The notes under the pieces were generated by a model that was not told where the DNA came from, did not search any database, and was given only the letters and a program-made list of their open reading frames with translations. From Alphaproteobacteria bacterium (GTDB lineage Bacteria; Pseudomonadota; Alphaproteobacteria; Rs-D84; CACZYB01): DNA of 64,000 bases. Positions within the stretch are counted from its first letter, which is position 1, and every line of letters begins with the position of its first letter. The stretch covers positions 2,264-66,263 of the forward strand of contig JAGBBO010000027.1 of NCBI GenBank assembly GCA_017938435.1, read 5' to 3'. This document shows positions 238-47,820 of this stretch, one piece after another. Both the position numbers and the translations under genes were made by a program.

Positions 238-795
238 ATGAAAGTTTCAAAAGAAATTATATCTGCACTTGAAAAAGATAAAGTTGCACCAATCATTGGA
301 AATCCAAACGGAAAAACTATTATTTACGAATTTTTCGATTACAACTGTGGACATTGCAAAAATCAAAATATAATTATGAACGAACTTATCCAAGCAAACA
401 AAGATATCAAAATAATTCTTAAAAATTTTCCAATATTCCCCGTATCTCATCTTCCTGCAAAAGCGACCGTTGCCGCACAAAAACAGGGTAAAACTTTTCT
501 ACTCCATAAATCCCTTTTTGAAAATCACCTTCTTCCATTCAATTATTCAGAAATAGGCGTAGAAACATTAAACAAAAAGATATTAGATAAAGTTTTATCC
601 ATAGCAAAAAAAATCGGACTTAACATCAAAAAACTCGAAAACGATATGTGTTCCGAAGAAGTCGAAAAAGAAATTGACATAACAAAAAAAATTGCACATC
701 AACTAAATATCCACGGAACACCTGCAATAATTATAAAAGACAAAGTATTCCCTGGTTTTATGGATATTGCCGAAATAAAAGAAGCTATAAAATAA
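238..795 (+). CDS. DsbA-like thioredoxin-fold protein (CGHC active-site motif)
   Basis: FDYNCGHCKN motif typical of DsbA/thioredoxin-fold oxidoreductases. Strong RBS aggaggt 6 nt upstream of the ATG. No obvious signal peptide. Confidence 0.55.
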   Translation: MKVSKEIISALEKDKVAPIIGNPNGKTIIYEFFDYNCGHCKNQNIIMNELIQANKDIKIILKNFPIFPVSHLPAKATVAAQKQGKTFLLHKSLFENHLLPFNYSEIGVETLNKKILDKVLSIAKKIGLNIKKLENDMCSEEVEKEIDITKKIAHQLNIHGTPAIIIKDKVFPGFMDIAEIKEAIK

Positions 796-13508: not shown

Positions 13509-15908
13509 ATGACAAAAGAATATAATTTCAAAGAAATTGAGAAAAAATGGCAACAAAAATGGGAAAATGAAAAAACATTCAAGGTTGAAATCGACAATTC
13601 AAAACCGAAATATTTCTCTCTCTTTGAATTTCCATATCCATCTGGTGCTGGTCTTCATGTTGGTCATCCTCGTTCATTCACTGCAATGGATGTGATTTCA
13701 AGAAAACGCCGTATGCAGGGATATAATGTTTTATTCCCTATTGGATTTGATGCCTTTGGTCTTCCAACAGAAAGATATGCGATTAAAAATCATATTCATC
13801 CTGCCGTTGCAACAAAACAAAATGTTGACAATTTTACAAAACAACTAAAAATGCTTGGATATTCATTTGATTGGGACAGAGTTATCAATACAACCGATCC
13901 CGAATATTATAAATGGACACAATGGATGTTTATACAATTTGTAAAAGCAGGACTTGCATACAAAGGTGAAGAAACTATTTGGTGGTGTCCAGAATGTAAA
14001 ATTGGTATTTCAAACGAAGAACTTGAAAATGGACATTGCGAAAGATGTGGAAGTGAAGTTGTAAAGAAAAAGAAATCTGCATGGATTTTAAAAATGCAAT
14101 CTTACTCTGATAAACTTCTTGAAGGTTTAAAAGAAGTTGATTTTCCAGACAGTGTTAAAAAAATGCAATCAGAATGGATTGGAAAATCTGTTGGTGCAGA
14201 AATTGATTTTTCACTTACCAATACAGATGAAAAATTAAAAGTATTCACAACAAGACCTGATACAATTTTTGGTGCGACATATATGGTAGTTGCACCTGAA
14301 CATCCATTGATTGAAAAACTTTCATCATCAATAAAAAATATGGAAGATATTAAAAATTATCAAAAACTTTCTGCACAAAAATCCGATATGGATAGAAGTA
14401 TGGCAAAGGATAAAACCGGCGTTCAAATTGATGGAATTTCTGCAATAAATCCATTCACAAACAAAGAAATGCCTATTTTTATTTCTGACTATGTTTTAAT
14501 GGGTTACGGAACTGGTGCAATTATGGCTGTTCCTGCACACGATGAACGCGACTATGATTTTGCAAAGGAATTCAAACTCCCTATCATCGAAGTTTTAAAA
14601 GGTGGTAATATTGAAACCGAAGCCTATACCGAAGATGGTGAGCATATAAATTCTGAATTCTTAAACGGTATGAATAAACAAGATGCAATCAATACTATAA
14701 TCAAAAAAGTTGAAGAAATGGGTATTGGTAAAGCATCAGTAAAATACCGTATGAAAGATTGGGTCTTCACTCGTCAAAGATATTGGGGCGAACCAATTCC
14801 AATGGTCCATTGTGAAAAATGTGGCTGGGTTCCATTGGATGAAAAGGATTTACCATTAACACTTCCAGAAGTTGATGATTATATGCCAACTGATGAAGGT
14901 TTATCCCCACTTGCAAAGGCAACCGATTGGATAAACACAACTTGCCCTCATTGTGGTGGGCATGCAACTCGTGAAACTGATACTATGCCAACATGGGCTG
15001 GTTCATCATGGTATTATTTAAGATATATGGACCCACATAATGACAAAGAATTTGCTTCAAAAGAAGCATTAAATTATTGGGGTCAAGTTGATTGGTACGA
15101 AGGCGGTGCCGAACATGTAACTCGCCATTTACTATACTCTCGTTTCTGGCACAAAGCATTATATGATATCGGACTTTTACCACACGACGAACCATACGCA
15201 AAACGTTCACTTCATGGAATGATTTTGGCTGAAAATGGCGAAAAAATGAGTAAGTCAAAAGGAAATGTTATAAACCCTGATGACATTGTTTCAAAATACG
15301 GTGCCGATACACTTCGTATGTATGAAATGTTCATTGGTCCATTTGATCAGGCAGCAATGTGGTCAACAAATTCTGTTGCTGGAATTTCAAGATTTTTGGC
15401 TAGGGTTTATGATTTAAGTGAAAAAGTTGGCAATGCAAAGATGAGTGAAAAGGATACCATCGCAATGCACCAAGCAATCAAGGATGTATCCGAACGCATC
15501 GAAGATATGAAATTCAATACTGCAGTTTCTGCACTTATGATTTTCTCAAATCACATGGGTTCATTGGAAATTATTCCGTCCGAAATGTTTGAAACATTCC
15601 TTAAACTCCTATCACCATTTGCACCACACATCGCAAACGAGTTATGGGAACAAATCGGTAAAAAATCAACACTTGATTTTGAACCATGGCCACAATTTGA
15701 TGAAAAAGCATTGGTTGCATCAAATGTAAATATTGTGATTTCAGTCAACGGTAAAAAACGCGCCGAAGCCGAAATCCCAGTTGACCTTCCAAATGCCGAA
15801 GTTGAAAAGTTTGTTCTTTCACTTGACGGAATAAAGAAATATTTTGGCGACAAAGAACCGAAGAAAATAATCATCGTTCCAAACAAACTTGTAAATATAG
15901 TGGTATAA
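13509..15908 (+). CDS. leuS: leucine--tRNA ligase
   Basis: HVGHP (HIGH) and KMSKSKGN motifs, 799 aa, leucyl-specific domain layout. Confidence 0.95.
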   Translation: MTKEYNFKEIEKKWQQKWENEKTFKVEIDNSKPKYFSLFEFPYPSGAGLHVGHPRSFTAMDVISRKRRMQGYNVLFPIGFDAFGLPTERYAIKNHIHPAVATKQNVDNFTKQLKMLGYSFDWDRVINTTDPEYYKWTQWMFIQFVKAGLAYKGEETIWWCPECKIGISNEELENGHCERCGSEVVKKKKSAWILKMQSYSDKLLEGLKEVDFPDSVKKMQSEWIGKSVGAEIDFSLTNTDEKLKVFTTRPDTIFGATYMVVAPEHPLIEKLSSSIKNMEDIKNYQKLSAQKSDMDRSMAKDKTGVQIDGISAINPFTNKEMPIFISDYVLMGYGTGAIMAVPAHDERDYDFAKEFKLPIIEVLKGGNIETEAYTEDGEHINSEFLNGMNKQDAINTIIKKVEEMGIGKASVKYRMKDWVFTRQRYWGEPIPMVHCEKCGWVPLDEKDLPLTLPEVDDYMPTDEGLSPLAKATDWINTTCPHCGGHATRETDTMPTWAGSSWYYLRYMDPHNDKEFASKEALNYWGQVDWYEGGAEHVTRHLLYSRFWHKALYDIGLLPHDEPYAKRSLHGMILAENGEKMSKSKGNVINPDDIVSKYGADTLRMYEMFIGPFDQAAMWSTNSVAGISRFLARVYDLSEKVGNAKMSEKDTIAMHQAIKDVSERIEDMKFNTAVSALMIFSNHMGSLEIIPSEMFETFLKLLSPFAPHIANELWEQIGKKSTLDFEPWPQFDEKALVASNVNIVISVNGKKRAEAEIPVDLPNAEVEKFVLSLDGIKKYFGDKEPKKIIIVPNKLVNIVV

Positions 15909-15931
15909 AAAATTCAAACAACCGCTTGAAT

Positions 15932-15969
15932 AAAAAAAACTCCCCACCGAAATGGTGGGGAAAATTTTT
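15932..15969. terminator. bidirectional rho-independent terminator after leuS
   Basis: A8-ctccccacc-gaaat-ggtgggg-aaaaTTTTT. Confidence 0.7.
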
Positions 15970-15986
15970 GGTTATCTTTTATTTTA

Positions 15987-16262
15987 TTACTCAGCACAAA
16001 CACAACTTTGGAACACTTGTATTTCTGTTATTCCCAGTTGATTATTATAATTAGATATAATATTTTTCAATGCACTTACATCACAACTTCCATTATAAGA
16101 ATCTAAAAAACGTTTCCACACATCTACACCGCCTTTATCAAACGAGTAAGGTAATTTAGAAGAAATAAACATATCACATACTATTTCTTCGGAAGATTTG
16201 GATGATGAAGCGTTTATAGTATTTTGAAAACCAGCCCTAGATGTTGAAGCACTAATACTCAA
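15987..16262 (-). other. in-frame continuation (91 codons, Cys-containing) of the 16266..18638 gene downstream of its TGA
   Basis: Same reading frame, one sense codon after the TGA. A 92-codon open frame is very unlikely by chance in roughly 30% GC DNA. Either a nonsense pseudogene or a recoded/readthrough gene. Confidence 0.5.
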
Positions 16263-16265
16263 AGA

Positions 16266-18638
16266 TCAATTATTGCTTTTAACAGCATTAACCGCACCAT
16301 AATTTGCATTTTGATTAAATGTTAAATTACCACAATTCGCAGCCCGTTTTCTATTCAATACTGTTTCCAAAGATTTATCCTCACTATCATCAGTCCAAAA
16401 ACTTCTGACACATTGTCTTCCACCAGGGGTATTAGCAACAAATTGAAGACAACCTTTTCCTAAAATTTTCTCTTTGTATCCATTCCTTGCATTATACTTA
16501 TCTTCACAAATTTTTGCAGACACTTCCCCAGCACAAATACAGTCTTTTGCCGCAACCATTGACTTTTGTAAAACAGCATTACTCATACCAATACAATTAT
16601 TTCCACGACAAGCACCAGATTCATAATCAGACAAAGTTTTTTCAACTTTATTTTTCAAGCATTTTGAATAAATTTCATCACTTTTATGATTTTGAATAAA
16701 CTCTTTCCAACCATTTCTACTTGTTTCCCCACCATTAGTACTTGGCACTTGAGAACACAAATCAGATGAATATTCTGTTTTTTGTTCTGATGATTGACTT
16801 GTTTTAGAATCAAGACAACAATCTCTTCCTCCATCACAAAGTTTGTATCCACTTTGACATTCAGCAGGAGCACAAGCATTCCTAGCCTCAACCCAATCCC
16901 ATCTTTTTACTGAGTCAGTTGCCTCTTTATTTGCACATTTATCATTCGAAGGAGTACTATCACTCTGACAAAGACAATTTCTATAATCTTTCATATTAGC
17001 AGATAAAGCACCATCCAATGTCCACCTTGTTTGATCATTCCATTTTCCAAGAGTATCTTTAACACTTTCATAACCACATCTACAATTTCCAGTAGAAACA
17101 TACTTTTCAACAAAACTTTTCCACCCAGAGATATTTCCGGTTTCCCCAGTTGGAACATCACTACACTTTGCTTCAAGTTTATCTCCTTTAGGAGCTTCAC
17201 CTTTGCATCTATCCAAACAGGTTTCCTTTATCAAAGCAGAAAGTTCCTCTTTATAATCATTTCCAAACCTTGAATACTTAGTTTTGAATATAGAATTCAA
17301 ATCCGTACCGTTATCGTTGTTTAACTTCATTTTATACCATTTATCGTAAACACCACGGCTTGGACCAGTGCAGAAAAACTCTTCACTATCAGTATTTCTG
17401 TAATAATATCTTGTCTTACAATTTGGGAAAAATACTTCACAAACGCCATCAATACCCTTTGATGGAGACCACATTGTATATGTAGTTTTTGCCTTTGAGC
17501 ACTCAGTATTTTCAACCTTTGGAGCTGGCTCTGGTTCTGTTTTTAAATCAGAAGTTGACTTTGAATCCGTAGGTGTTTCATCCTTTTTCTGTTGAACTTT
17601 CTTTTCCCCAATCCAATTATTTCCGATATTAAGCCCAATAAATGTTTCTTGCTTATCATCCTGAGCCTTTACACAAGTACTTGAATTTCTACCTACAAAA
17701 TAACCTTCCTTACAAACAATTCTACAATCAGGATTACCTCCTTTTTTATATGACCAATAAAGTCCCCCAACAGGAAGTGGCGAATTTACACAATCACTTT
17801 CCCTAAACCATTGATTAACAACCTTGTCTGCAGATTGTTCTCCAATAGCTTTTGCCTCGGCCTCTAATGCAATCATTTGAGAATTAGAATGACTATCTAA
17901 ATCATATTCATTTACTTTTGTGAGTTTATAATCCTCTGCACCACAAGCAAGTTCAGCCATTTCTGTATATCCAACCAATGTTGCATCCACAACTTGACGC
18001 CAATTTTCTCGTTTCTGAGTATTTTGACCAGTCAATCTTAAATCTTCCAATGCCCCAACATTTGAATCTCCATAATCCCCAGCTTGATAAAAACGATTAA
18101 GCATATAACTATCGCCACTTGCTTCAAATCCACAAAGTGAATCAAGTTCATTATAAAGTTCAACCGAAGATGAACCATCAGACGAAATCATTGCGGTATA
18201 ACATTTTTTCGCTGCCTGTAATGCCCTTGTTGCTTTAGCACATTCTGTCGAATTTTTCTTTAACCCAGTTTCAATAGTTCCCTTGCTATTAAGAAGAGAA
18301 ACAATTCTATTATAAGAATAAGTTTTACAACCATTTTGCAAATCAAGTTGTTTTATAACAGCCCTTGTTGCTAAACAATCTTCAACATTAACTAAAATTG
18401 TCGATGCAGGCTCAGCACCACATTTTGAATACACCCCCTCATTCAAAGTTTTTTTATCAAAACAATATCTTGAAAAACAATAATCAATATCTATATTACA
18501 TTGATCCTGTGTTGGTGTTGTATAAGTAACGGTTTTCGAAGCAGAAGAAATTCTTCTTGTTGAGCTTTTTCTTGTTGCAGAAATTGCATTTTCAGAAAAA
18601 CATAACAATACTAAAAACAATGGTAATAATTTTTTCAA
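16266..18638 (-). CDS. large secreted Cys-rich protein (N-terminal 790 codons of an interrupted frame)
   Basis: Signal peptide MKKLLPLFLVLLCFSENAISA. More than 40 Cys. Ends at a single TGA that is in frame with ORF 15987..16262. Confidence 0.6.
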   Translation of the reverse strand: MKKLLPLFLVLLCFSENAISATRKSSTRRISSASKTVTYTTPTQDQCNIDIDYCFSRYCFDKKTLNEGVYSKCGAEPASTILVNVEDCLATRAVIKQLDLQNGCKTYSYNRIVSLLNSKGTIETGLKKNSTECAKATRALQAAKKCYTAMISSDGSSSVELYNELDSLCGFEASGDSYMLNRFYQAGDYGDSNVGALEDLRLTGQNTQKRENWRQVVDATLVGYTEMAELACGAEDYKLTKVNEYDLDSHSNSQMIALEAEAKAIGEQSADKVVNQWFRESDCVNSPLPVGGLYWSYKKGGNPDCRIVCKEGYFVGRNSSTCVKAQDDKQETFIGLNIGNNWIGEKKVQQKKDETPTDSKSTSDLKTEPEPAPKVENTECSKAKTTYTMWSPSKGIDGVCEVFFPNCKTRYYYRNTDSEEFFCTGPSRGVYDKWYKMKLNNDNGTDLNSIFKTKYSRFGNDYKEELSALIKETCLDRCKGEAPKGDKLEAKCSDVPTGETGNISGWKSFVEKYVSTGNCRCGYESVKDTLGKWNDQTRWTLDGALSANMKDYRNCLCQSDSTPSNDKCANKEATDSVKRWDWVEARNACAPAECQSGYKLCDGGRDCCLDSKTSQSSEQKTEYSSDLCSQVPSTNGGETSRNGWKEFIQNHKSDEIYSKCLKNKVEKTLSDYESGACRGNNCIGMSNAVLQKSMVAAKDCICAGEVSAKICEDKYNARNGYKEKILGKGCLQFVANTPGGRQCVRSFWTDDSEDKSLETVLNRKRAANCGNLTFNQNANYGAVNAVKSNN

Positions 18639-18750
18639 TTTATCTCTCCTATATACTTATATAATAATATAACATAAAAACAACTTTCTCAATAAAAAAA
18701 TAGACATATCAAATTTAATTGCTATAATTTATTACAAAGGAGAAATTAAA

Positions 18751-19194
18751 ATGAAAAAAATACTAATTTTAGGTTTGGCATTAACACTTTGTGCATGTAT
18801 CACAAAAGAATACCGCGGTGGCGTTCCAATCCGTGAAAGCCAAAAAGAACAAATAAAAAATGCCAACACAAAACGCGATGTAATTGAAATTCTTGGTTCT
18901 CCTGCTGCAACAAATTTTGTTGGGCCTGAAAAATGGTACTATTACACATCCGAAGGTGAAGTTTGGGCTTTTCTTGACCCAAAATTTTCAAAATACGATA
19001 TTCTAACAATAAGTTTTGATGGTTCAGATAATATCAAAGAAGTAAAACTTTCAAATCTTGCGAACAAAGAAATTGCACAAAACGAAGACGAAAAAACCGA
19101 ACTTCCATCAGATATAAAGTTAGGTTTCTTTGCCGAACTCTTTGGCAATATCGGAAGATTTAATACTGCTGGAACATCAACACCAACAAATTAA
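18751..19194 (+). CDS. BamE/SmpA-OmlA-like outer-membrane lipoprotein
   Basis: Lipobox LCAC. The motif ILGSP...PEKWYYY resembles the BamE fold. Low-complexity C-terminal tail. Confidence 0.5.
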   Translation: MKKILILGLALTLCACITKEYRGGVPIRESQKEQIKNANTKRDVIEILGSPAATNFVGPEKWYYYTSEGEVWAFLDPKFSKYDILTISFDGSDNIKEVKLSNLANKEIAQNEDEKTELPSDIKLGFFAELFGNIGRFNTAGTSTPTN

Positions 19195-22618: not shown

Positions 22619-24607
22619 TTAGTTAAACAATTTCCAGTTAAGTTTTTTAACTTCACCATCATTCATCAACATAGAGCCACCAGCATCCGGATCCCCAAGA
22701 TAACAAGCCCCAGTCATAATACCCTTATTAGCATCAGCCGAAATCTTACTTGTCACCAAAGTTGTTATGCCAGTAAGTGCAGTCTGAGTTCCCGAAGAAA
22801 TCGCACTTTGCAAAGCAGATGAACTTTGTTCTTTCAACTGTTCCATCTCCTTCTTCTTCTCGTTCACTGTATTATTTGCACTATTATAAGATGATACAGC
22901 AGAGTTGTAATCTTTTATAGATTTCTTATCATCCTCATCACCAGTCATAAGAAATTTCAACCCATCACGATAATCTTTTGCATTACTTTTCATCATCTTC
23001 AACTCTTCTTCTAAGGATGAAATACCAGTTCCATCGCTTTCTCCACCAGAGCTACTTCCTTGTTTATCTACAGTTTTCAACCAACCTTGCTTACTATCCC
23101 AATGACATTTGGAACGATCAGCACAAGAATAACCAGAACCAGAAATATCGTTATGGCATTCAAAATTTGAAGTAGCACCATTATCTAATATATATTTTTT
23201 ATTTGCATCATCTAAACTTCTTACATCTATTTTATTCTGACAAGTGCTACATGGATCTCCAACCAAATATCTCATAGCACTTGAACATACCGCATCAGCC
23301 ACACCAACATTTAATGTTGCTCCAGGAGTAAATAAAGTACTTGCCTGAGCAACATAAGTTGGAGCAATATAATTTCTTGCAAAATTAATATTATCCTGTG
23401 CTTCTGCAGCTTCTGCCTTCAACGCACTTAAATCTTTCAATTTTGAAATAAGTTCTTTTAACTTTTCTGCCTTTTTAAGTTCATTAGATTTTTCTATATA
23501 AACATAACATTTTTCTTTACCTTTAAAAGTTTCCGCAGTCAAAGTAGAACAATCTTCACCTTCAGATGATGTTTTACTCTTTGGAAGGCCATAATTATCT
23601 GCAAAAGAATCAGCGCTATACCTACAATATTTTGCGCCATTATCATCTACCCCTTTTTCACCATCACATTGATCTTCTTCCGCCCTTTTCAAGCCAACTC
23701 CACTTGCCCCATACCAATATTTATTATCAGGCTTACTATCTGTCAAATTTGTTCCATCGAATTTATACCACGCATCCTCGACAAATGCACCGGCACGTTT
23801 CAAATTTTTTTGTGCATTGATTGCGCCAACAACCTGTGCCCCAGTAGAAAGAAGTCCAGTTCCAAGTTGTATCATAGCCTGAATCCCAGCAATTTTATCC
23901 TCTGCACTTTGTTCAGCCTTATACTCCAAATTTTGTTGGCTTAAACCAAAATTATTGTATGAACAAGTAAATGTTGTTCCAACAGAAACGGTTTTATCCC
24001 TTTTAACCTTACTTTTACCATCCGGCGATTTTGCCAAATAGTAAATACTCAACTTACATGTTTCACCAGAAATCTTACCACCGGCATTGGCACAACTTTC
24101 CTTAAAATAATCCTTAACCTTTGAAACAACCTGTTGTTTAGCAAGCACACGCACAGTTTCCGATGACGCAGAATTCAAATAAGATTGACATGAAGGATTT
24201 CCTGCCAAGAAAACATCAATATTCGATGTTTTAAAACATTTTTCATACGAAACATCGCCGGCACATTGCCCACTTAAACAACTAAGCAAGTTTGACTTCA
24301 AATTTGAAATTTCGGTTGCCTCATCCACAACAGTTGCAGTAGTAGTAGTCGTTGTTGTTGTGGTAGTTCCACCCCTTCGTGAGGAAGATGAAGATGCACG
24401 AGCTTCGGAGGTATCTTCTGCTACATTTACAGTAACAGTTTCAGTCTTTTTCTTTGACTTATTTTTTTTCTTTTTCTTTGATGAACTTTTTCTTGCAGTA
24501 TTTGACTTTTTTGCATCAGCATAATCTGTTGGAAAAACAAGGATTCCAGCCAAAATCAAAGTTAAAATAGTAAGAAAACTACTTCTTCTCTTCATAATAT
24601 CCTCCAT
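22619..24607 (-). CDS. secreted Cys-rich protein with poly-Lys and poly-Thr low-complexity N-terminal region
   Basis: Signal peptide MKRRSSFLTILTLILAGILVF. K-rich and T11 tracts. Many Cys pairs. The likely start is the second Met, at 24593. Confidence 0.6.
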   Translation of the reverse strand: MEDIMKRRSSFLTILTLILAGILVFPTDYADAKKSNTARKSSSKKKKKNKSKKKTETVTVNVAEDTSEARASSSSSRRGGTTTTTTTTTTATVVDEATEISNLKSNLLSCLSGQCAGDVSYEKCFKTSNIDVFLAGNPSCQSYLNSASSETVRVLAKQQVVSKVKDYFKESCANAGGKISGETCKLSIYYLAKSPDGKSKVKRDKTVSVGTTFTCSYNNFGLSQQNLEYKAEQSAEDKIAGIQAMIQLGTGLLSTGAQVVGAINAQKNLKRAGAFVEDAWYKFDGTNLTDSKPDNKYWYGASGVGLKRAEEDQCDGEKGVDDNGAKYCRYSADSFADNYGLPKSKTSSEGEDCSTLTAETFKGKEKCYVYIEKSNELKKAEKLKELISKLKDLSALKAEAAEAQDNINFARNYIAPTYVAQASTLFTPGATLNVGVADAVCSSAMRYLVGDPCSTCQNKIDVRSLDDANKKYILDNGATSNFECHNDISGSGYSCADRSKCHWDSKQGWLKTVDKQGSSSGGESDGTGISSLEEELKMMKSNAKDYRDGLKFLMTGDEDDKKSIKDYNSAVSSYNSANNTVNEKKKEMEQLKEQSSSALQSAISSGTQTALTGITTLVTSKISADANKGIMTGACYLGDPDAGGSMLMNDGEVKKLNWKLFN

Positions 24608-33485: not shown

Positions 33486-33677
33486 TTTTCAACCTCATCA
33501 AAATGTATAAAAATAGGATATCATACATTATTCAAAAATACAAGTTTAAAGCATTTAATATCACTAATTACATAAAGTAATATCTTAAAAATATCTTGCA
33601 AATATAGGAAAAGATTCGTATAATTACAACGATTTTAAATAACTGCCCAAAAATGGCTATAATTTAAGGAAATTTTC

Positions 33678-34409
33678 ATGAAAAATACTGTTGTTAATAT
33701 TGTTTGTATGAAATGGGGAACAAAATTTGGTCCTCAGTATGTTAACCGTTTACATAAAATGGTTGAAAAGAACTTAACTCTTCCACACCGTTTTGTTTGT
33801 TTTACTGATGATGCAACAGGACTTGAAAAGGGTATTGAAACATTTCCTCTTCCAGAAGTAATATTCGAAGCTGGTCCTGAAAGAGGTTGGCGTAAACTTG
33901 GAATTTTTTCAAAAAAACTTGGCGATTTAAAAGGTGATGCATTATTTTTAGACCTTGATACTTTAATTTTAAGAAATATCGATGAATTTTTTAAAGTAAA
34001 AGGAGATTTCTTAATCATAAAAGACTGGGATTTTAAAAATTATATTGGTAATTCTTCTGTATTCAGATTCACCATTGGAAAACATAGTGATGTTTTAGAT
34101 TATTTCGAAGAAAATCGCTTTCAAATCAGAAAACAATTCAGAAATGAGCAAGCATATCTTTCATGGATGATGATGAAAAAGGGCATACTAAAATATTGGA
34201 ATAAAAAATGGTGTATCAGTTTCAAACGCCATTGTTTATGGCCATTTCCAATAAATTGGTTTAAAGAACCAAGACTTCCAGAAGAGGCAAAAATTTTAAT
34301 TTTTCATGGTCACCCAAATCCAGAGGAAGCATTTAAAGGCTATACCACCAAATATGGTTTTCGCCATATAAAACCAACCCTATGGCTTAACGATTTTTGG
34401 AAGGTATAA
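33678..34409 (+). CDS. putative glycosyltransferase (nucleotide-diphospho-sugar transferase-like)
   Basis: Conserved VCMKWGTKFG...FVCFTDD N-terminus. Sits inside a glycosyltransferase cluster. Family not firmly recognised. Confidence 0.35.
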   Translation: MKNTVVNIVCMKWGTKFGPQYVNRLHKMVEKNLTLPHRFVCFTDDATGLEKGIETFPLPEVIFEAGPERGWRKLGIFSKKLGDLKGDALFLDLDTLILRNIDEFFKVKGDFLIIKDWDFKNYIGNSSVFRFTIGKHSDVLDYFEENRFQIRKQFRNEQAYLSWMMMKKGILKYWNKKWCISFKRHCLWPFPINWFKEPRLPEEAKILIFHGHPNPEEAFKGYTTKYGFRHIKPTLWLNDFWKV

Positions 34410-34412
34410 TAT

Positions 34413-35402
34413 ATGATATCCTATCCTTTAATATCTGTATTACTACCAATTTACAATGCTGAACAATTTCTAACAAAATGTTTGAACAGTATAATTTCTC
34501 AAACATATACTAATATTGAAATAATATGTATTGATGACGGATCAACAGATAATTCTTTACAAATATTAAAAAATTTTGCAAATAATGACAAAAGAATTAT
34601 TGTTCATACAAGAACAAACAAGGGTGATCATATCACAAGGATGGAATTATTACAAAAAGTAAAAGGTAAATATTTTATCTTTATAGATAACGATGATTAT
34701 ATAGAACAAAATACAATTGAAACATTATATAATACTATGAATACACAAAATGTAGATATGGTTGAATGTAATGTAAATCATATACGACTTGGAAACAGAA
34801 ATACTAATTATGCGATAAAACATTTTGGGAAATTTAAAAATTTTGAATATATAAATTACTATAGTTATCCTTTATGGAATAAATTATTTAAAACAGAAAT
34901 AGTTAAAAATTTTAAAATAACATTTCCTAACAACCCTAATATAACTTGTGTATTTGATAAATGGTTTAATTTTGAATATATTTGTTGCTGTAAAAATATA
35001 TATGCTATCCCAGAAAAACTTTATAATTATTTAATTCATAACTCATCTACTTTAAGCAATATGGATTACAAAAAAAATATTTCTGATTTTTATTCTCTTA
35101 ATGAAACATATAACTTTTTAAAAAACAACAATTTATTTAAAACTTATCAAAATATATTCTTTAAAAAATTGATAAAATACTCATCAAAAATTATAAAAAA
35201 AGACATTTATTTTCAGGAAGCAAAAAAGGAAATTTTAACACTTGAAAAAAAATTGAAAAACGATTTTCCATTATCATTTTATTTATATAAACTAAAACAA
35301 ATATTTAATTTCAAAAATATTCTTTCAATAAAAAAATCTTTAGATGGAAAATCTAAAATAATAACATTATTTGGAATTAAATTTATCAAGGGAATAAAAT
35401 GA
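34413..35402 (+). CDS. glycosyltransferase family 2
   Basis: ISVLLPIYNAEQFL...IDDGSTDNS and DNDD (DxD). Confidence 0.8.
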   Translation: MISYPLISVLLPIYNAEQFLTKCLNSIISQTYTNIEIICIDDGSTDNSLQILKNFANNDKRIIVHTRTNKGDHITRMELLQKVKGKYFIFIDNDDYIEQNTIETLYNTMNTQNVDMVECNVNHIRLGNRNTNYAIKHFGKFKNFEYINYYSYPLWNKLFKTEIVKNFKITFPNNPNITCVFDKWFNFEYICCCKNIYAIPEKLYNYLIHNSSTLSNMDYKKNISDFYSLNETYNFLKNNNLFKTYQNIFFKKLIKYSSKIIKKDIYFQEAKKEILTLEKKLKNDFPLSFYLYKLKQIFNFKNILSIKKSLDGKSKIITLFGIKFIKGIK

Positions 35403-36259
35403 AACCAATTCTTGTTCATTGTCATATATACTACATAAATTTATACGAGGAATTAGAAACCTGCATAAAAAATATAACTGTTCCTTTTAAACTATATATA
35501 ACAATGGTTGAAAAAAATATTTCACTTATAAATAAAATAAACAAATCTTTTCCAAATGCAAAAATCGAAATAGTTGAAAACCGAGGATTCGATATTGCCC
35601 CATTTATTCATATTTTAAATAAAGTGAATTTGAACAATTATAGTTATATAATAAAATTACATACAAAAAGAGATATAAATGGATATGTATTTTATAACTA
35701 TCATAATCTAAGCAATAATCATTGGAGAAAATACCTACTATCATTCATATCTTCAAAGAAAAATTTTGAAAAAACAATCTCTATTCTTTCTAAAAATAAA
35801 AACATAGGTATGTGTTCAAATTATAAAGTTATCTGTTCCAAAACAAAATTTAAGAAAATAAAATCAAAAATTGATGAAATTTTTAAAAATCTAAATCTTA
35901 CATTAAAAACAAAAAAGTATGTTTGTGGCACAATGTTTATTGCAAAATCAGAATTATTTATCCCTATACAAAAACTTAATCTTTCAATATATGATTTTGA
36001 AAAACCACTAAATCACAATGATGGAACTCTTGCTCATATATTTGAAAGGATTTTTGGATACATAATATATGCACAAAATTACACAATAAAGGATGTTATC
36101 ACACCAAAACTAAAACAAATTATTGATTTTGAATTTATAACAATATTATTTAATTTAAAATTTTGGAAAGAACTTCTTTATCAAAAAAAAGATACCACCT
36201 CCGGAAAAACTATAATAAAAATACTTAAAATACCTGTATATAATAAGAAAAGGAGTTAA
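35399..36259 (+). CDS. RgpF-like (rhamnan-synthesis protein F family) glycosyltransferase candidate
   Basis: N-terminus ILVHCHIYYINLYEE resembles the RgpF family. Overlaps the neighbouring gene by 4 nt. Confidence 0.35.
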   Translation: MKPILVHCHIYYINLYEELETCIKNITVPFKLYITMVEKNISLINKINKSFPNAKIEIVENRGFDIAPFIHILNKVNLNNYSYIIKLHTKRDINGYVFYNYHNLSNNHWRKYLLSFISSKKNFEKTISILSKNKNIGMCSNYKVICSKTKFKKIKSKIDEIFKNLNLTLKTKKYVCGTMFIAKSELFIPIQKLNLSIYDFEKPLNHNDGTLAHIFERIFGYIIYAQNYTIKDVITPKLKQIIDFEFITILFNLKFWKELLYQKKDTTSGKTIIKILKIPVYNKKRS

Positions 36260-36262
36260 AAT

Positions 36263-37108
36263 ATGCCTAAAATATCTGCACTTATGCCTATATATAATAC
36301 ACCAAAAGAATATTTAACCAAAACAATAGAAAGTATTCTTTCTCAAACATTTACTGATTTTGAACTTATTATATTAAATGATTCTCCTAATAATAAAGAA
36401 TTGGAAAAAATCGTAAAATCTTATAAAGATAAAAGAATAAAATACCTATCAAATGAAAAAAATATAGGTATAACACCAAGCAGAAATAAACTTATAAATC
36501 TTGCAAAAGGTGAATATATTGCTATTATTGATCATGATGATATATCTATTCCTACACGTTTTTATGAAGAGGCTACTTATCTTGACAATAATCCTGATGT
36601 TGGTGTCGTAAGTGGGCAAATTCAATATTTTCAAAATAATCATGGGAAATCGAAACATAAAATTGAAGATGCGGATATAAAAATAAATTTACTAAATAGT
36701 ATTGCTGTTTCTCACCCTTGTGCCATGATAAGGAAATCTATACTGACAGAAAATAATATACAGTATGATGAAAAATTTACACCTGCAGAAGATTACAAAT
36801 TATGGATAGATCTTATTCCATACACAAAATTTCATAACATTGATAAAGTTCTTCTTTTATACAGAGATCACAAAGAAAACACTGCCAAAGTTCAAAATTA
36901 TAAAATAAATATGGCTACTGCAAAACTCCGTTCAATTTTAAAAGAAAAATACTCTTATTTATATGAGTATAAACTATTGACCATTGGGGGGGGTATCACC
37001 TTGAAATTACTAGGTTTTTTACCGATATTATCGATAAAAAAATACTCAAAAAAGGTAAAAGTATATTTATTTAATAAAATTTTAATACTAACAATAAAAT
37101 ACAAATAA
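36263..37108 (+). CDS. glycosyltransferase family 2 with internal poly-G(8) tract (likely phase-variable)
   Basis: ISALMPIYNTPKEYL...DHDD motifs. G8 run at 36986..36993 encodes GGG about 40 codons before the stop. Confidence 0.75.
   Translation: MPKISALMPIYNTPKEYLTKTIESILSQTFTDFELIILNDSPNNKELEKIVKSYKDKRIKYLSNEKNIGITPSRNKLINLAKGEYIAIIDHDDISIPTRFYEEATYLDNNPDVGVVSGQIQYFQNNHGKSKHKIEDADIKINLLNSIAVSHPCAMIRKSILTENNIQYDEKFTPAEDYKLWIDLIPYTKFHNIDKVLLLYRDHKENTAKVQNYKINMATAKLRSILKEKYSYLYEYKLLTIGGGITLKLLGFLPILSIKKYSKKVKVYLFNKILILTIKYK
36986..36993 (+). repeat. homopolymeric G8 tract inside the GT2 gene
   Basis: Direct read: ccattGGGGGGGGtatc. G/C homopolymers of 7 or more are very rare in this AT-rich window. 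Confidence 0.9.
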
Positions 37109-37111
37109 AAA

Positions 37112-38689
37112 ATGCAAAATAAAAAATTAGATTTCATTTCAAAAATTATGATTCAAGGATTACTTGTAACATTTATATTTATGTTACCAGATATAATTTT
37201 TAAACTATTCCAATCGTCCCCTATAAAATTTAGTGGTGGAATGGTTACTCAAATATTTTTATTTGCTATACTTTCTTCATCAACTCACTCAAAAAAATTC
37301 CGTTATTTTCTTTGGAGTTTTTGGGGCATCTTTATGACAATGGAATTATGTCATTTTGCATTTTTTGGATCTTTATCAACACCATACACATACATCTGGA
37401 TGATAAGTGAGTTAAAAGATACATTTGACGGTGCCTTACATTCGATACATTTATTTTATGCACCATTATCCGTAATAATACCTTTTGTTTTACTATTTTG
37501 GATTGATAAAAAATTTGATAAAAATATAAAACGAAGTAAAATTTCAACAATAATTTTATCTATTGCACTATTTTATATGGCTATAGATGTAAATCGCCAA
37601 AATCGTGCATTTTTCTATGCTTCTGAAAGAGAAAGTAATCCAACATTTATTGCGACAACACGAAAAACTAATTTTATAATTTTCAAAGCAATTCCTAAAT
37701 TATTATTTCGCGGATACAATACAAATTTCAAACCCTATGAAATAACAAAAATTACTTCACCTGAAAAAATCAACATAATTTATATATTCGGAGAAAGTGG
37801 TAACCCAAACTTTTTTTCCATTGACTCGGCAACGAAACAGACAAGACAAGACAGCACCACTCCACACCTTGATAATTTAAAAAATGATGCTACTTTTTGG
37901 TATAGTCGAGGTTTTTCATCAAGCGTTTCCACAATATATTCTGTGATGATGAATTTTTATATGCAACGAGAACCAGAAAATCACGATGTTCAAATAAATA
38001 AAAAATCAGATATTTTACAATTGGTCAAAAATGCAGGATTTAAATCATGGTTTATCGAAGCACAAAATACTTCTCCTGATTACAAAGATAAAATTGATTT
38101 CGTATATTTAATAGAAAACGAAGTAAATAAAAACGGCGAAGAAATTGCCCTTAATTATTTTCCAAAATTAACTGAACTTTCAAATAAAAATTTTATACTT
38201 TATCACCAAAATATTATGCACTTTGATTATAAAAACCACTACGAAAAATTTGGGGATAAATGGAAAAAATTTAAACCATCAGATAATTCATTAGCCGAAG
38301 AAAAAATCTCTGAATATAAAAATTCTGTTTTCTATTGGGATTATATAATTGGAAAAATTTTCAATTATGCAAAAAATGTCGCCGAAAAAACTAATGCTCC
38401 AACTTATGTTATATATATGAGTGACCACGGTGAACTTATCGGAGAAAATAAACGAGGTCATTCTATTTTATCAAAAGAAGTTGCTACCATTCCTATGTTT
38501 GTAAAATGTTTTAATTGTTCAAATGTAAATGAATTTAAAATAAAAAATCCAACTCATTATAGAATAAATGAAAAACTTTTACATCTTATAGGATACCACC
38601 TACACAACCCAAATGATGACGGAAAAACTTTCTACATAAATGGAAAAAGTTTATACGGCGATGACGGATTTATAACAATGACCGACTAA
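37112..38689 (+). CDS. phosphoethanolamine transferase / sulfatase-family membrane protein (EptA/Lpt3-like)
   Basis: N-terminal multi-TM region. C-terminal sulfatase-type motifs (IIYIFGESGNPNFF, YVIYMSDHGE). Confidence 0.6.
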   Translation: MQNKKLDFISKIMIQGLLVTFIFMLPDIIFKLFQSSPIKFSGGMVTQIFLFAILSSSTHSKKFRYFLWSFWGIFMTMELCHFAFFGSLSTPYTYIWMISELKDTFDGALHSIHLFYAPLSVIIPFVLLFWIDKKFDKNIKRSKISTIILSIALFYMAIDVNRQNRAFFYASERESNPTFIATTRKTNFIIFKAIPKLLFRGYNTNFKPYEITKITSPEKINIIYIFGESGNPNFFSIDSATKQTRQDSTTPHLDNLKNDATFWYSRGFSSSVSTIYSVMMNFYMQREPENHDVQINKKSDILQLVKNAGFKSWFIEAQNTSPDYKDKIDFVYLIENEVNKNGEEIALNYFPKLTELSNKNFILYHQNIMHFDYKNHYEKFGDKWKKFKPSDNSLAEEKISEYKNSVFYWDYIIGKIFNYAKNVAEKTNAPTYVIYMSDHGELIGENKRGHSILSKEVATIPMFVKCFNCSNVNEFKIKNPTHYRINEKLLHLIGYHLHNPNDDGKTFYINGKSLYGDDGFITMTD

Positions 38690-39048
38690 ACAGTAATATT
38701 GTAACTTGCATCAATAAGTTGAAAAATTTTTTCTGGCTCTACACTTTCATCCAAAACAACTGTTATCCAATTTTTTTTGTTCATATGATAGGCAGGATAA
38801 AATCCAGGTTGAGCCAATAAAAACTCAATAAAATCAGGACTTGCCTTTACATTTAAAATATCAATTTTCTTACCTTTTTCCAACCCAAGATATTTTGCAT
38901 CCACCTGACCAAACAAAGCATACCACTTTTTATTATGATTATGTCTTAATATTTCAAAAGTTGGATATTTCTTCGGCCACAATTTTTCAGGCACAGTTTT
39001 ATATTTTTCGCTAACATAATGTAAAATATCACTTCGCCCAAACATCAC
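38686..39048 (-). CDS. MmcQ/YjbR family DNA-binding protein
   Basis: 120 aa. The sequence pattern is consistent with the YjbR family. Confidence 0.55.
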   Translation of the reverse strand: MMFGRSDILHYVSEKYKTVPEKLWPKKYPTFEILRHNHNKKWYALFGQVDAKYLGLEKGKKIDILNVKASPDFIEFLLAQPGFYPAYHMNKKNWITVVLDESVEPEKIFQLIDASYNITV

Positions 39049-39303
39049 CTACTTTACCTCCACCTTCAAAGCATAATTATCCCATTCATTATTTTGCCCA
39101 GTCACCAAAGAAACCACCGAAGTTACAATCAAATGAGCATCCTCGAAATCCAAAATAATTTCATCGCCAACCCTTGGAACAACATTATCTGGTAAAGAAT
39201 TAGAAAAAAGAAAAACCGTATCAAGAGCAAGAGAAACCTTAACATCTAAAATTTTATCACCATACACAAATTTTGCATCAAAAATCATTTTTTCCCCTTT
39301 CAT
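39049..39303 (-). CDS. hypothetical small protein (84 aa)
   Basis: ORF directly upstream of, and contiguous with, the YjbR-like gene. Confidence 0.35.
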   Translation of the reverse strand: MKGEKMIFDAKFVYGDKILDVKVSLALDTVFLFSNSLPDNVVPRVGDEIILDFEDAHLIVTSVVSLVTGQNNEWDNYALKVEVK

Positions 39304-39523
39304 TATCCAAAAACAAGATAACTCAATTTTATAAAAAAGTCAAGAACAAAATGAAAACAAACATTAAAAATTAAACGGTCCTTAATTTTTTAATATTATT
39401 TAAATTTCCACCAAAAATCAAAAAATATAGACATTTCCTAGTTTTGAATAAATTCCTTGAAAAATCATATAACTTATTTTAATATTGCAAATTAAACCAC
39501 CGTTTTTATAAAAGGAATTATAA

Positions 39524-41182
39524 ATGAAAAAAAGTTGGGTCATAATTGTAAGTTTGTTTTTACTACTTTTAAGCATTGAATCTTTCGTAAAAAAAGAAGT
39601 TTCTGTTTCTTTTACACAAAAAACAACAAAAGATATTGAATACCAAATTTTTTACACTAAACAAAAAGACGAGCCTTTTTCTGAAAGATATTCTATCAGA
39701 AAAAAAGTTTCAAAAGACTGGGAAAACATACAAATATCCATTCCAACAAGAAAGATTTTTCGTTTCAGAATTGACCCAGGAACAGAAAAAGGAACAATTG
39801 AAATTTCTAACTTAAAAATCAATGGCAAAAAACTTGATTTAAGTAAATTTAATAAAAGCAAAGATGTTTCACAACTTTCATTTGATAAAAATAAAGATAC
39901 ACTTACAATAATATCTAATAATCATGATCCTTACATAACATACAAAGACAGTCTAAATATATCAAATAGTTTTACAATAAACTACACTATATTAATAATA
40001 TTATTATGTATTTACTTAACTATTTCATATATTATTGTAAAATTTATTCATTCAAAAAGAAACAAAATTGATGCTGTGTTTATTGTGTTGTTTGGAATCC
40101 TTTTATTCATACCTATGATGAAAATTTCAGACAAAGAAAAATCAGATAAAGAAAACAGAATGTTAGCAAAATATCAACCTTTGTTTTCGAACGGTAAATT
40201 AAATGAAAAATACGGATCTCAGTTTGATAGTTGGTTCAATGATAGATTCAATGGAAGAGATTTTCTTACTAATATTTTTTCAATCACTTCTTGTTATCTT
40301 ACAAAAGAATGCCAAAACAATTCTGCAATATATTTTAAAAAACAAAATATAATGTTTTATAAGGGCAATATTAACTCATTCACATATTCAAATCAATTAT
40401 TAGAAGATACTTTAAATGGAATAAAATTTTACAAGAAATTTTGTAAAGAAAATAATATCAAGTGTTATATAGAAGTTGTTCCTGAAAAAATTTTATTTGA
40501 AAATGACAATATCTTTGATAAATATAAAAAACAAATAGGAAATTTTTATACTTTAATCAACTTTATAAAAGAAAAATCCAATTTCAATATTATATATCCA
40601 TTTACTGAATTGGAAAAGGCGAATAAAAAATCATATATTTATTTCCGCACAGATCATCACTGGACTGATTGGGGAACATATAATGGTTATACAGTTTTAA
40701 TGAATGAAATTAAAAAAGATTTTCCTACTTTAAATATCCTACCATTAAATGATTTTAAAAAATTTTCTTCAAAAGAAGTTCGAGCAGAATATAATAGAAA
40801 TTTTATAAAAGGCTCAAATTGTAAAGCATTAAATCTACAAAAAAACATGTGTAATTTAAATATAGATTACGACTACTATGATTATAATGATACAGACCTA
40901 CAACTTATTAAAACAAAAGATAACGGCAAAGATTTTAAATATAAAAAATCAAAAAATAATCAAAAAGTAATGATTATTGGAAACTCATTTACAGAAAATT
41001 TTGTTACATTTTTAGCTCCTTCATTTAAAGAAGTAAAAAAAAGAAGATGTAACGCTGCTGGAATTAACAATTTGAATCTTTCAAGATGGAAAAATGAAAT
41101 TTATAAATACAAGCCTGACATTCTTATAATTTTAATTGAGGAAAATTATGCTCGTCAACATCTAAAAAATTTAAATTCTTGA
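39524..41182 (+). CDS. DHHW-motif (AlgX/AlgJ-like SGNH) protein, partner of the MBOAT acyltransferase
   Basis: N-terminal TM anchor. Literal FRTDHHWTDWG motif. Immediately upstream of the MBOAT gene. Confidence 0.6.
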   Translation: MKKSWVIIVSLFLLLLSIESFVKKEVSVSFTQKTTKDIEYQIFYTKQKDEPFSERYSIRKKVSKDWENIQISIPTRKIFRFRIDPGTEKGTIEISNLKINGKKLDLSKFNKSKDVSQLSFDKNKDTLTIISNNHDPYITYKDSLNISNSFTINYTILIILLCIYLTISYIIVKFIHSKRNKIDAVFIVLFGILLFIPMMKISDKEKSDKENRMLAKYQPLFSNGKLNEKYGSQFDSWFNDRFNGRDFLTNIFSITSCYLTKECQNNSAIYFKKQNIMFYKGNINSFTYSNQLLEDTLNGIKFYKKFCKENNIKCYIEVVPEKILFENDNIFDKYKKQIGNFYTLINFIKEKSNFNIIYPFTELEKANKKSYIYFRTDHHWTDWGTYNGYTVLMNEIKKDFPTLNILPLNDFKKFSSKEVRAEYNRNFIKGSNCKALNLQKNMCNLNIDYDYYDYNDTDLQLIKTKDNGKDFKYKKSKNNQKVMIIGNSFTENFVTFLAPSFKEVKKRRCNAAGINNLNLSRWKNEIYKYKPDILIILIEENYARQHLKNLNS

Positions 41183-41235
41183 AATGGATTACTGTAAGGG
41201 ATAATATATAATAAATTTTTATAAGGACTAAAAAA

Positions 41236-47813: not shown

Positions 47814-47820
47814 ACGAAAG

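What the first reader, a model, noticed from the sequence alone, without database searches (positions are those of the whole stretch)
15987..18638. Cys-rich secreted giant protein interrupted by one in-frame TGA
ORF 16266..18638 ends at a TGA. The next codon but one begins a further open frame of 92 codons (15987..16262) in the same frame, and that extension also contains Cys. Chance explanation is improbable. At roughly 8% stop codons per random codon, a 92-codon open frame has a probability near 5e-4. The gene is therefore either a recent nonsense pseudogene or sequencing error, or a recoded or readthrough UGA. No obvious SECIS-like hairpin follows the TGA.
Basis: seen in the sequence. Interest (0 to 1): 0.55.

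Follow-up and report, generated by a model that had tools for sequence, protein, structure and literature searches.

The report
Premature stop strands last protein module
In one strain of an uncultured ruminant-gut alphaproteobacterium, an ordinary TGA stop codon cuts the last of three small cysteine modules off a strain-variable secreted protein; this is most likely a recent truncation, and nothing points to recoding.

Summary
The minus-strand ORF 18638..16266 (790 aa) has a signal peptide and 42 Cys, and ends at TGA (16268..16266). Ninety-two in-frame sense codons follow, up to TAA-TAA at 15989..15984.

The extension is genuine coding sequence. It is a full-length third copy of a ~60-aa four-Cys helical module that occurs 1-3 times in the 36 other proteins of this unannotated family. 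Its best match is the C-terminal module of homologue P0016, and the two end at the same position. The extension's stop lies about 21 nt before the terminator shared with leuS. In two conspecific strains the intact gene ends 17-23 nt before that same terminator.

The TGA is not a sequencing error: five independent assemblies are identical over 2,861 nt. Recoding is not supported:
- TGA is a normal stop elsewhere in the window.
- There is no SECIS-like hairpin and no Rfam SECIS hit.
- The TGA lies in a Ser/Asn-rich linker, not at a Cys position.
- In the 14 other loci where the module is found, every copy lies inside the main ORF.

An unselected relic would also probably stay open at within-species divergence. 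Verdict: a strain-specific truncated allele of a gene whose modules are shuffled between strains. Low interest. The gene family itself is the more interesting by-product: it is always next to bamE, and conspecific strains carry different C-terminal cassettes.

The parts
18664..18692 (-). Sigma-70-like promoter candidate (TTGAGA-17-TATTAT) in the 112-nt divergent intergenic region shared with bamE
   Evidence: Consensus scan. This is a pattern match only.
18646..18650 (-). Shine-Dalgarno AGGAG, 7 nt upstream of the TTG start codon (18638..18636)
   Evidence: Read from the sequence. Public gene calls use the same start (P0001, 790 aa).
16266..18638 (-). Main ORF, 790 aa. Signal-peptide-like N-terminus (aa 1-21); conserved helical Cys-rich N-domain (aa ~40-330) that ends in an EGF-like hairpin; low-complexity linker; conserved middle domain (aa ~380-478); then the variable modular part.
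   Evidence: invariant Cys columns; AF2 block-mean pLDDT mostly 80-93 for the N-domain up to aa ~230 and for the middle domain; 46-83 over aa ~231-330.
16968..17165 (-). Module copy 1 (aa 492-557), pattern C...W..F...C...CxC
   Evidence: Module HMM E = 7e-17. Coordinates.
16815..16940 (-). Small Cys-rich insert, labelled EGF-like from its Cys pattern only (aa 567-608). Most of it (16769..16904) is absent in the conspecific strain L006.
   Evidence: blastn gap at 16905/16768. Coordinates.
16533..16757 (-). Module copy 2 (aa 628-702)
   Evidence: Module HMM E = 5e-13. AF2 block-mean pLDDT is 63-96 across it, about 90 or more over aa 631-670.
16269..16523 (-). Strain-unique 85-aa segment with 4 Cys ('tail', aa 706-790). 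Homology with conspecific alleles stops at ~16527.
   Evidence: No relative among the 37 family proteins or in 1.84e9 representative proteins. AF2 pLDDT <50. It is open only in this frame, with coding-like GC1/2/3 = 0.41/0.41/0.18.
16266..16268 (-). The in-frame TGA (context AAT AAT TGA TCT), inside a Ser/Asn-rich linker
   Evidence: Identical in L001-L005.
16179..16265 (-). Ser-rich linker after the TGA (SLSISASTSRAGFQNTINASSSKSSEEIV)
   Evidence: It resembles the inter-module linkers of homologues.
15996..16178 (-). Stranded module copy 3. It keeps all four invariant Cys and the conserved Trp.
   Evidence: Module HMM E = 3e-14, model positions 1-59 of 60. Best hit is the C-terminal module of P0016 (aa 741-830 of 830, E = 7e-15). 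Alignment A2. AF2 gives mean pLDDT 85.7, pTM 0.74, four helices.
15984..15989 (-). TAA TAA that closes the extended frame; this is the gene's former stop
   Evidence: It lies ~21 nt before the terminator stem, against 17-23 nt for the stops in L006 and L007.
15932..15962 (.). Bidirectional intrinsic terminator (CCCCACC-ATTTC-GGTGGGG plus a T-run) shared with the convergent leuS (13509..15908 +). It is the only terminator-like site downstream of the gene's TGA.
   Evidence: Conserved in L006 and L007. The weak Rfam hits in this region all fall on this hairpin.

Best explanation
The gene encodes a secreted, disulfide-rich modular protein of an unannotated family. The family is found only in uncultured gut or host-associated Alphaproteobacteria and is always divergently paired with bamE.

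Its 3' half is built from interchangeable cassettes: four-Cys helical modules, small Cys-rich inserts and various terminal tails. These cassettes differ between strains whose flanking genes are 98-99% identical.

In this strain a TGA sits in the linker before the last module. The ribosome terminates there in the ordinary way, giving a 790-aa product that keeps every conserved domain and two modules. The former linker plus terminal module (16265..15990) is now an untranslated stretch. It is probably still transcribed, because the only terminator-like site downstream of the TGA lies beyond it.

The most likely origin is a single-base nonsense substitution in a continuous 883-codon frame, for example TCA, GGA, AGA or TTA to TGA. 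I give this sub-claim about 0.6.

Shown: the stop, the homology and completeness of the stranded module, its position relative to the terminator, reproducibility across assemblies, and normal TGA usage in the window. Inferred: that no appreciable readthrough occurs, that the extension is transcribed, and that the origin was a point mutation.
For: (a) The extension is a bona fide module.
- The HMM built from it finds 42 module copies in 28 family proteins (including the fused window protein) and scores the extension at 3e-14 over the full model length.
- The four Cys are invariant across 26 aligned copies, the extension included.
- AF2 folds it confidently (pLDDT 85.7).
- It keeps the gene's codon-position composition: GC3 = 0.17 against GC1 = 0.35 and GC2 = 0.42.

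(b) It is the gene's former 3' end.
- It aligns to the very C-terminus of P0016 (CVCGK* against CVCAE*).
- At least six further family proteins (P0006, P0022-P0025, P0034) also end within a few residues of a module's CxC.
- Its TAA lies ~21 nt before the shared terminator, where the L006 and L007 alleles also stop.

(c) The TGA is real: identical sequence in 5 assemblies, 19 contigs.

(d) TGA is an ordinary stop here.
- It ends 2 other ORFs of the 46, one in a typical ATGA stop/start overlap.
- It never occurs in-frame in the other 45 long ORFs, including leuS and valS, and Trp is encoded by TGG.

(e) There is no recoding signal.

(f) The arrangement is not conserved. In the 14 other loci with module hits (of 20 scanned), every module lies inside the main ORF.

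(g) An open relic needs no selection. Only 40 of 828 possible substitutions create a stop, so P(still open) is 0.77-0.88 at the 1-2% divergence seen between strains.

(h) Native stops in this family are TAA (11), TAG (3) and TGA (1). TGA is therefore a rare natural terminator, which mildly favours a mutational origin.
Against: - No allele with a sense codon at this position was found. The whole block 16527..15984 is unique to this strain, so the ancestral codon is unknown.
- The order 'unique Cys segment, then linker, then module' has no parallel in the family. In other members, non-module tails are always terminal.
- All assemblies carrying the allele are 100% identical, so they are probably one clone. 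There is no population signal of relaxed or maintained constraint on the extension.
- Low-level readthrough cannot be excluded from sequence alone.
Confidence: 0.8

Rival explanations
1. The TGA is the native stop of a terminal cassette brought in by recombination. The downstream linker and module are what is left of the previous allele's 3' end, and they lie in frame by chance (one in three).
For: The gene's 3' half is demonstrably replaced cassette by cassette between conspecific strains, with breakpoints at module ends. The block that holds the TGA is unique to this strain. In all other members a non-module tail is the last element of the protein. An 18-nt imperfect repeat that encodes the C-x-C-A-E/G module end brackets the block (D7).
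Against: In sister alleles only 13-25 nt separate the stop from the conserved terminator, so a normal homologous exchange would also have replaced the old 3' end. TGA is a rare native stop: 1 of 15 family loci and 2 of 45 other ORFs in the window. The Ser/Asn-rich linker reads continuously across the TGA. The 'tail' shows no significant similarity to either of the two tail classes tested, A and B.
Confidence: 0.22
2. Leaky or programmed UGA readthrough produces a minor 883-aa isoform that carries a third module alongside the 790-aa form.
For: From general knowledge, UGA is the leakiest bacterial stop. The extension is intact, in frame, ends at a proper double TAA before the terminator, and would fold as a normal module.
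Against: There is no stimulatory structure (z = -0.98). The fourth base is U, which in E. coli gives comparatively efficient termination (my recollection of Poole et al. 1995, not checked here). No other locus with module hits shows a stop followed by a module. Intactness is what a young neutral relic would show anyway.
Confidence: 0.07
3. The UGA encodes selenocysteine.
For: An in-frame UGA in a Cys-rich exported protein.
Against: There is no SECIS-like hairpin and no Rfam SECIS hit. The codon lies in a low-complexity linker and not at any of the invariant Cys columns. No tRNA-Sec is present in the window. No homologue has Cys or Sec at that place. As far as I know, no Sec-containing exported structural protein of this kind has been described in bacteria.
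Confidence: 0.01
4. Sequencing or assembly artefact: a miscalled base, or a chimeric join of two co-occurring alleles of this hypervariable gene.
For: Strain-variable regions are prone to chimeric metagenome assembly.
Against: Five assemblies made with different pipelines from different runs (one ENA, four Logan) are identical over 2,861 nt, and 19 contigs encode the same product.
Confidence: 0.03
5. The extension is translated separately as a small protein, by reinitiation at TTG 16262 or from ATG ~16172, as some gene callers annotate it.
For: Public gene calls exist for a 91-aa ORF (L002) and a 61-aa ORF (P0038). The TTG lies 4 nt after the TGA.
Against: Neither start has a Shine-Dalgarno sequence. 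The product would lack a signal peptide, so a four-Cys disulfide module would remain in the reducing cytoplasm. No free-standing module protein turned up in the family search or in the 1.84e9-protein library, apart from calls made on this same locus.
Confidence: 0.03

Closest known systems
Premature-stop (truncation) alleles of modular surface or secreted protein genes, for example inlA premature-stop variants in Listeria monocytogenes (from my own knowledge)
   Same: A strain-specific nonsense codon removes the C-terminal part of a multi-domain exported protein. The downstream reading frame stays recognisable, and the allele is fixed in a clone.
   Different: Only the last of three repeated modules is lost here. 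No anchoring function is known for it. The protein family is uncharacterised, and no intact version of the same allele has been sampled.
Mosaic, recombination-shuffled surface protein genes, for example pneumococcal PspA/PspC and Neisseria Opa or pilin (from my own knowledge)
   Same: A conserved 5' part and a cassette-like variable 3' part that differs between strains with near-identical flanks. Breakpoints sit at domain boundaries.
   Different: No silent donor cassettes were found: no other module copy occurs in the 64-kb window or around the gene in the 14 other loci with module hits. The modules are a new four-Cys helical type. Surface exposure has not been shown.
Bacterial selenoprotein genes (UGA plus a SECIS hairpin read by SelB)
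   Same: An in-frame UGA followed by an open, conserved reading frame.
   Different: No SECIS, the UGA is not at a Cys or Sec column, and the arrangement is not conserved in homologues.
UGA-reassigned genetic codes: table 4 (Mycoplasmatales, Hodgkinia) and table 25 (Gracilibacteria and Absconditabacteria)
   Same: A low-GC (about 30%), reduced genome of an uncultured host-associated bacterium with an in-frame TGA.
   Different: TGA terminates two other genes and never interrupts the other 45 long ORFs. All Trp codons seen are TGG.

Membership tests
Four-Cys helical module of this protein family (membership of the extension) | Four invariant Cys in the pattern C-x(n)-W-x2-[FLVM]-x(n)-C-x(n)-C-x-C | tested here: met
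   All four Cys are invariant in 26 aligned copies, the extension included. The Trp and the Y-x-G motif are present.
Four-Cys helical module of this protein family (membership of the extension) | Significant, full-length match to the module profile | tested here: met
   hmmsearch E = 3e-14, model positions 1-59 of 60. BLASTP to the terminal module of P0016 gives E = 7e-15.
Four-Cys helical module of this protein family (membership of the extension) | Predicted to fold as a compact helical domain | tested here: met
   AF2 mean pLDDT 85.7, pTM 0.74, four helices. No PDB fold match.
Nonsense-truncated allele | Sequence after the stop is in frame and homologous to coding sequence of relatives | tested here: met
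Nonsense-truncated allele | The extended frame ends where intact alleles end | tested here: met
   The stop-to-terminator distance is ~21 nt here, against 17-23 nt in L006 and L007.
Nonsense-truncated allele | A sister allele carries a sense codon at the stop position | tested here: not met
   No such allele was found in the 5.8e9-cluster protein database, JGI metagenomes, GTDB species representatives or the 1.84e9 representative proteins. The block is unique, so absence is uninformative rather than contrary.
Bacterial selenoprotein gene | SECIS stem-loop directly 3' of the UGA | tested here: not met
   MFE z = -0.98 against shuffles. No SECIS family at E <= 10.
Bacterial selenoprotein gene | Cys (or Sec) at the aligned position in homologues | tested here: not met
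   The TGA lies in the linker NN*SLSISAS. Homologues have variable Ser/Asn/Gly linkers there, not a Cys column.
Bacterial selenoprotein gene | selA, selB, selC and selD present in the genome | not testable with these tools
   Only the 64-kb window is available. It holds one tRNA, Leu-UAA.
UGA sense-codon reassignment (codes 4 and 25) | In-frame TGA recurs in conserved genes; TGA is not used as a terminator | tested here: not met
   No in-frame TGA in the other 45 ORFs. TGA ends the ORFs at 34413..35402 and 39524..41182.
Programmed stop-codon readthrough | The stop plus the extension is conserved across relatives | tested here: not met
   In the 14 other loci with module hits, every module lies inside the main ORF.
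Programmed stop-codon readthrough | Purifying selection on the extension after the stop arose | not testable with these tools
   All copies of the allele are identical, so there is no variation to analyse.
Phase-variable (contingency) gene | A simple-sequence tract at or near the frame interruption | tested here: not met
   No tandem repeat in 15900..18640 apart from an AT-rich 8-mer in the promoter region.

The most novel reading that the evidence does not exclude
The stop is functional rather than a lesion. One version is that a leaky UGA lets the bacterium make two isoforms, with and without a third module. The other is that the stranded, still-transcribed module is kept as a silent donor or acceptor cassette that feeds the module shuffling seen among conspecific strains. 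Neither is excluded, because every sampled copy of the allele is clonal and no expression data exist.
Probability: 0.06. Interest if true: 0.55.

Novelty: new member of a known kind. Interest (0 to 1): 0.2.

Why it matters
The TGA itself matters little. It is a strain-level truncation, and it shows that the public 91-aa and 61-aa gene calls on this stretch are artefacts.

The by-product is more useful. It defines an unannotated, Cys-rich secreted protein family of gut Alphaproteobacteria (probably RF32-like lineages with reduced genomes). The family has:
- a conserved core with no Pfam or NCBIfam match and no PDB match by sequence or fold;
- strict divergent pairing with bamE;
- a C-terminal region assembled from shuffled four-Cys modules, which differs between strains that are otherwise 98-99% identical.

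This pattern is typical of surface molecules under diversifying selection, for example from phage, predators or host immunity. The family is therefore a candidate strain marker or receptor in an uncultured lineage.

Tried and rejected
- Sequencing error: rejected.
- Alternative genetic code: rejected from stop and Trp codon usage.
- Selenocysteine: rejected.
- Frameshifted origin of the unique 85-aa 'tail': rejected. The other two frames carry 3 and 15 stops, and no family protein hits them by tblastn.
- Relationship of the tail to the two tail classes tested (A and B): not significant, 0.5-1.6 bits.
- Silent cassettes elsewhere: none in the window or in the other loci with module hits.
- Recent intragenic duplication as the source of module 3: no nucleotide-level similarity beyond an 18-nt motif-encoding repeat.
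- Phase-variation tract: none.
- Searches for an intact allele, or any relative of the tail-plus-extension block, found nothing useful. The word-index protein search failed even to recover P0001. Two JGI metagenome scans were empty. The exhaustive HMMER search returned only a 61-aa gene call on this same locus and a spurious hit to a repetitive protein.
- AFDB Foldseek was unavailable.
Full report
**1. The observation**

On the minus strand a 790-codon ORF runs from TTG at 18638, preceded by an AGGAG Shine-Dalgarno at 18650..18646, to TGA at 16268..16266. Translating straight through gives ...AVKSNN*SLSISASTS..., then 92 sense codons, then TAA TAA at 15989..15984. The extension has 4 Cys. The main ORF has 42 Cys (5.3%), the highest of the 46 long ORFs in the window.

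Only 58 of 200,000 shuffles of the extension stay open (2.9e-4). The other five frames of the same stretch carry 5-12 stops each. The described feature is therefore real and not a chance open frame.

**2. What the extension is**

A search with the fused protein found 37 proteins in all. One is P0001, the identical 790-aa product; the other 36 are homologues. All come from uncultured Alphaproteobacteria, 'Rickettsiales' or unclassified 'bacterium' MAGs, and none has a Pfam domain.

The family members share:
- a signal peptide;
- a strongly conserved Cys-rich N-domain (about aa 40-330, with many invariant Cys);
- a low-complexity linker;
- a conserved middle domain;
- a variable C-terminal region.

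A profile seeded with the extension alone and iterated on the family converged on 42 copies of a ~60-aa module. Its pattern is C...W..F...C...CxC, and it occurs 1-3 times per protein. In the fused window protein it finds aa 499-558, aa 637-703 and aa 833-882. The last of these is the extension, matched over the full model length at E = 3e-14.

In an alignment of 26 copies the only invariant columns are the four Cys, and the extension has all of them. AlphaFold2 folds the extension, using that alignment, into a four-helix domain with mean pLDDT 85.7 and pTM 0.74.

The extension's best single match is the C-terminal module of P0016 (aa 741-830 of 830, E = 7e-15), which ends ...LFQTCVCGK* where the extension ends ...VFQSCVCAE*. 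At least six further homologues (P0006, P0022-P0025, P0034) also end within a few residues of a module's CxC. Codon-position composition in the extension (GC1/2/3 = 0.35/0.42/0.17) matches the rest of the gene (0.41/0.43/0.19).

The extension is thus a complete terminal module.

**3. Where the gene should end**

Two conspecific strains (L006 encoding P0002, L007 encoding P0004) have flanks 98-99% identical to the window. Their intact genes stop 23 nt and 17 nt before the hairpin CCCCACC-ATTTC-GGTGGGG plus T-run. This hairpin is a bidirectional terminator shared with the convergent leuS.

In the window it is the extension's TAA, not the TGA, that occupies this position, ~21 nt before the stem. 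The TGA lies about 300 nt upstream, and no terminator-like site lies between the two. The extension is therefore the gene's former 3' end, and it is probably still part of the transcript.

**4. Is the TGA real, and is it decoded?**

The 790-aa product is encoded on 19 contigs. Five loci fetched from different runs or samples (one ENA assembly and four Logan assemblies) are identical to the window at all 2,861 positions compared, including the TGA. A sequencing error is excluded. A reproducible chimeric join is very unlikely.

Within the window, stop-codon usage among 46 ORFs is TAA 36, TAG 7 and TGA 3. The two other TGA stops are followed by only 11 and 4 open codons. One of them is a typical ATGA stop/start overlap. 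None of the other 45 ORFs contains an in-frame TGA, and Trp is encoded by TGG. The genome therefore uses the standard code.

The RNA after the TGA does not fold better than shuffles (z = -0.98). Rfam finds no SECIS family at the gathering threshold in the window, or at E <= 10 locally. The weak local hits all sit on the terminator. The TGA lies in a Ser/Asn-rich linker, not at a conserved Cys.

I scanned 20 other loci in six frames: two conspecific strains, 15 species representatives from GTDB, and the three P0016 loci. Fourteen of them gave module hits, and in each of those every module lies inside the single long ORF. Only the window has a module behind a stop.

No simple-sequence tract is present that could cause phase variation.

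**5. Does the open frame need selection?**

No. Only 40 of the 828 possible single substitutions in the extension create a stop. Under neutral decay it would stay open with probability 0.77-0.88 at the 1-2% divergence seen between strains of this species, and still with 0.51 at 5%. Intactness fits a young relic and is not evidence for readthrough.

**6. Origin of the stop**

The 3' half of the gene is a mosaic.
- Against L006, homology is interrupted at 16905/16768. The window has an extra small Cys-rich insert there. Homology ends at ~16528, just after the CIC of module 2, and resumes only at 15966.
- Against L007, the stretch 17595..17339 is replaced, as is everything from 16815 to 15983.

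The block 16527..15984 comprises an 85-aa Cys-containing segment, the TGA, the linker and module 3. It is unique to this strain. The 85-aa segment has no relative among family members or among 1.84 billion representative proteins. It is modelled at pLDDT <50. It is nevertheless open only in this frame and has coding-like composition.

Two origins are possible.
- (a) A point nonsense mutation in a continuous frame. Several codons common in this gene are one step from TGA: TCA (19 uses), GGA (20), AGA (19), TTA (17), TGG (13) and TGT (38).
- (b) A recombined-in terminal segment that brought its own stop and stranded the older terminal module.

Three things favour (a). Native TGA stops are rare: 1 of 15 family loci and 2 of 45 other window ORFs. 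The linker reads continuously across the TGA. In sister alleles so little sequence separates the stop from the terminator that a homologous exchange would have removed the old end.

One thing favours (b): non-module tails are always terminal in other members.

I put (a) near 0.6 and (b) near 0.2. Both give the same present-day outcome.

**7. What the protein is**

There is no match in Pfam, NCBIfam, PDB sequences or PDB folds.
- Foldseek's best E-value was 0.57.

The AF2 model has a mostly confident helical N-domain and a confident middle domain, and is confident over most of module 2.

The gene is divergently adjacent to bamE in the window and in 21 of the 23 other fetched loci. The exceptions are L021 and L001; L001's bamE appears in the gene table instead. 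A DsbA-like gene lies in the same window, which would suit periplasmic disulfide formation.

Record names and locus tags point to ruminant gastrointestinal MAGs. The catalogue paper describes RF32-order Alphaproteobacteria with reduced ~1.6-Mb genomes in that habitat (PMC8199421). Assigning this window to RF32 is my inference, not something I tested.

My working model is a secreted or outer-membrane-associated, disulfide-stabilised protein whose exposed C-terminal modules are exchanged between strains under diversifying selection. Only the architecture, the synteny and the mosaicism are shown. Localisation and function are inferred.

**8. Verdict**

The finding is a real but ordinary, strain-specific premature stop. 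It strands the last module of a modular, hypervariable gene. Recoding, selenocysteine, an alternative code and a sequencing error are not supported.

Confidence is 0.8 for plain termination with a stranded module. Interest is low (0.2). The family-level observations deserve a separate, modestly higher rating.

Noticed in passing
window 18751..19194 (+) and 16266..18638 (-); loci L006-L020, L022-L026: The Cys-rich family gene is divergently paired with bamE (about 110-nt intergenic region) in the window and in 21 of the 23 other fetched loci, although downstream neighbours differ (leuS here, a xerC/D-like integrase in L024). The exceptions are L021 and L001; L001's bamE shows in the gene table. 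This suggests an outer-membrane-related role.
   Followed up: partly
window 17595..15984 compared with L006 and L007: Strains with 98-99% identical flanks carry unrelated C-terminal cassettes in this gene, including different linkers, module sets and tails. Breakpoints fall at module ends (after CxC or CC). At least five architectures occur within one species (the window plus P0002-P0005).
   Followed up: partly
window 16269..16523 (-): An 85-aa, 4-Cys segment just before the TGA has no detectable relative in 1.84e9 representative proteins and is modelled at pLDDT <50. Its composition is nonetheless coding-like and it is open only in this frame. Its origin is unexplained.
   Followed up: partly
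window 15987..16262 (-); L002 5377-5652; P0038: Public gene callers annotate the stranded module as separate 91-aa (TTG start) or 61-aa (ATG start) 'hypothetical proteins'. These are probably annotation artefacts.
   Followed up: yes
window 15987..16004 and 16524..16541: An 18-nt imperfect direct repeat (15 of 18) encodes the module ends CVCAE* and CICAGE. It brackets the strain-unique 537-nt block exactly. This may be microhomology used in cassette exchange, or simply the shared motif.
   Followed up: no
window 238..795 (+): A DsbA-like thioredoxin-fold gene, which would suit oxidative folding of Cys-rich exported proteins.
   Followed up: no
window 22619..24607 (-): A second secreted-looking protein without annotation: 662 aa, 18 Cys, signal-peptide-like N-terminus, no Pfam hit.
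   Followed up: no
window 43942..54406: An island next to tRNA-Leu(UAA) at 54316..54406. It holds hipA, MT-A70 and C5 DNA methylases, a Rep-like ORF, a type I hsdM followed by two half-size hsdS ORFs (51568..52116 and 52233..52649), and a tyrosine integrase (52676..54187).
   Followed up: partly
window about 33600..42600: A stretch of markedly lower GC (23-27% against about 31%). Only ORF 39524..41182 was tested here (AlgX/DHHW SGNH-type hit). It may be a horizontally acquired surface-polysaccharide cluster.
   Followed up: no
[not shown]
   Followed up: no
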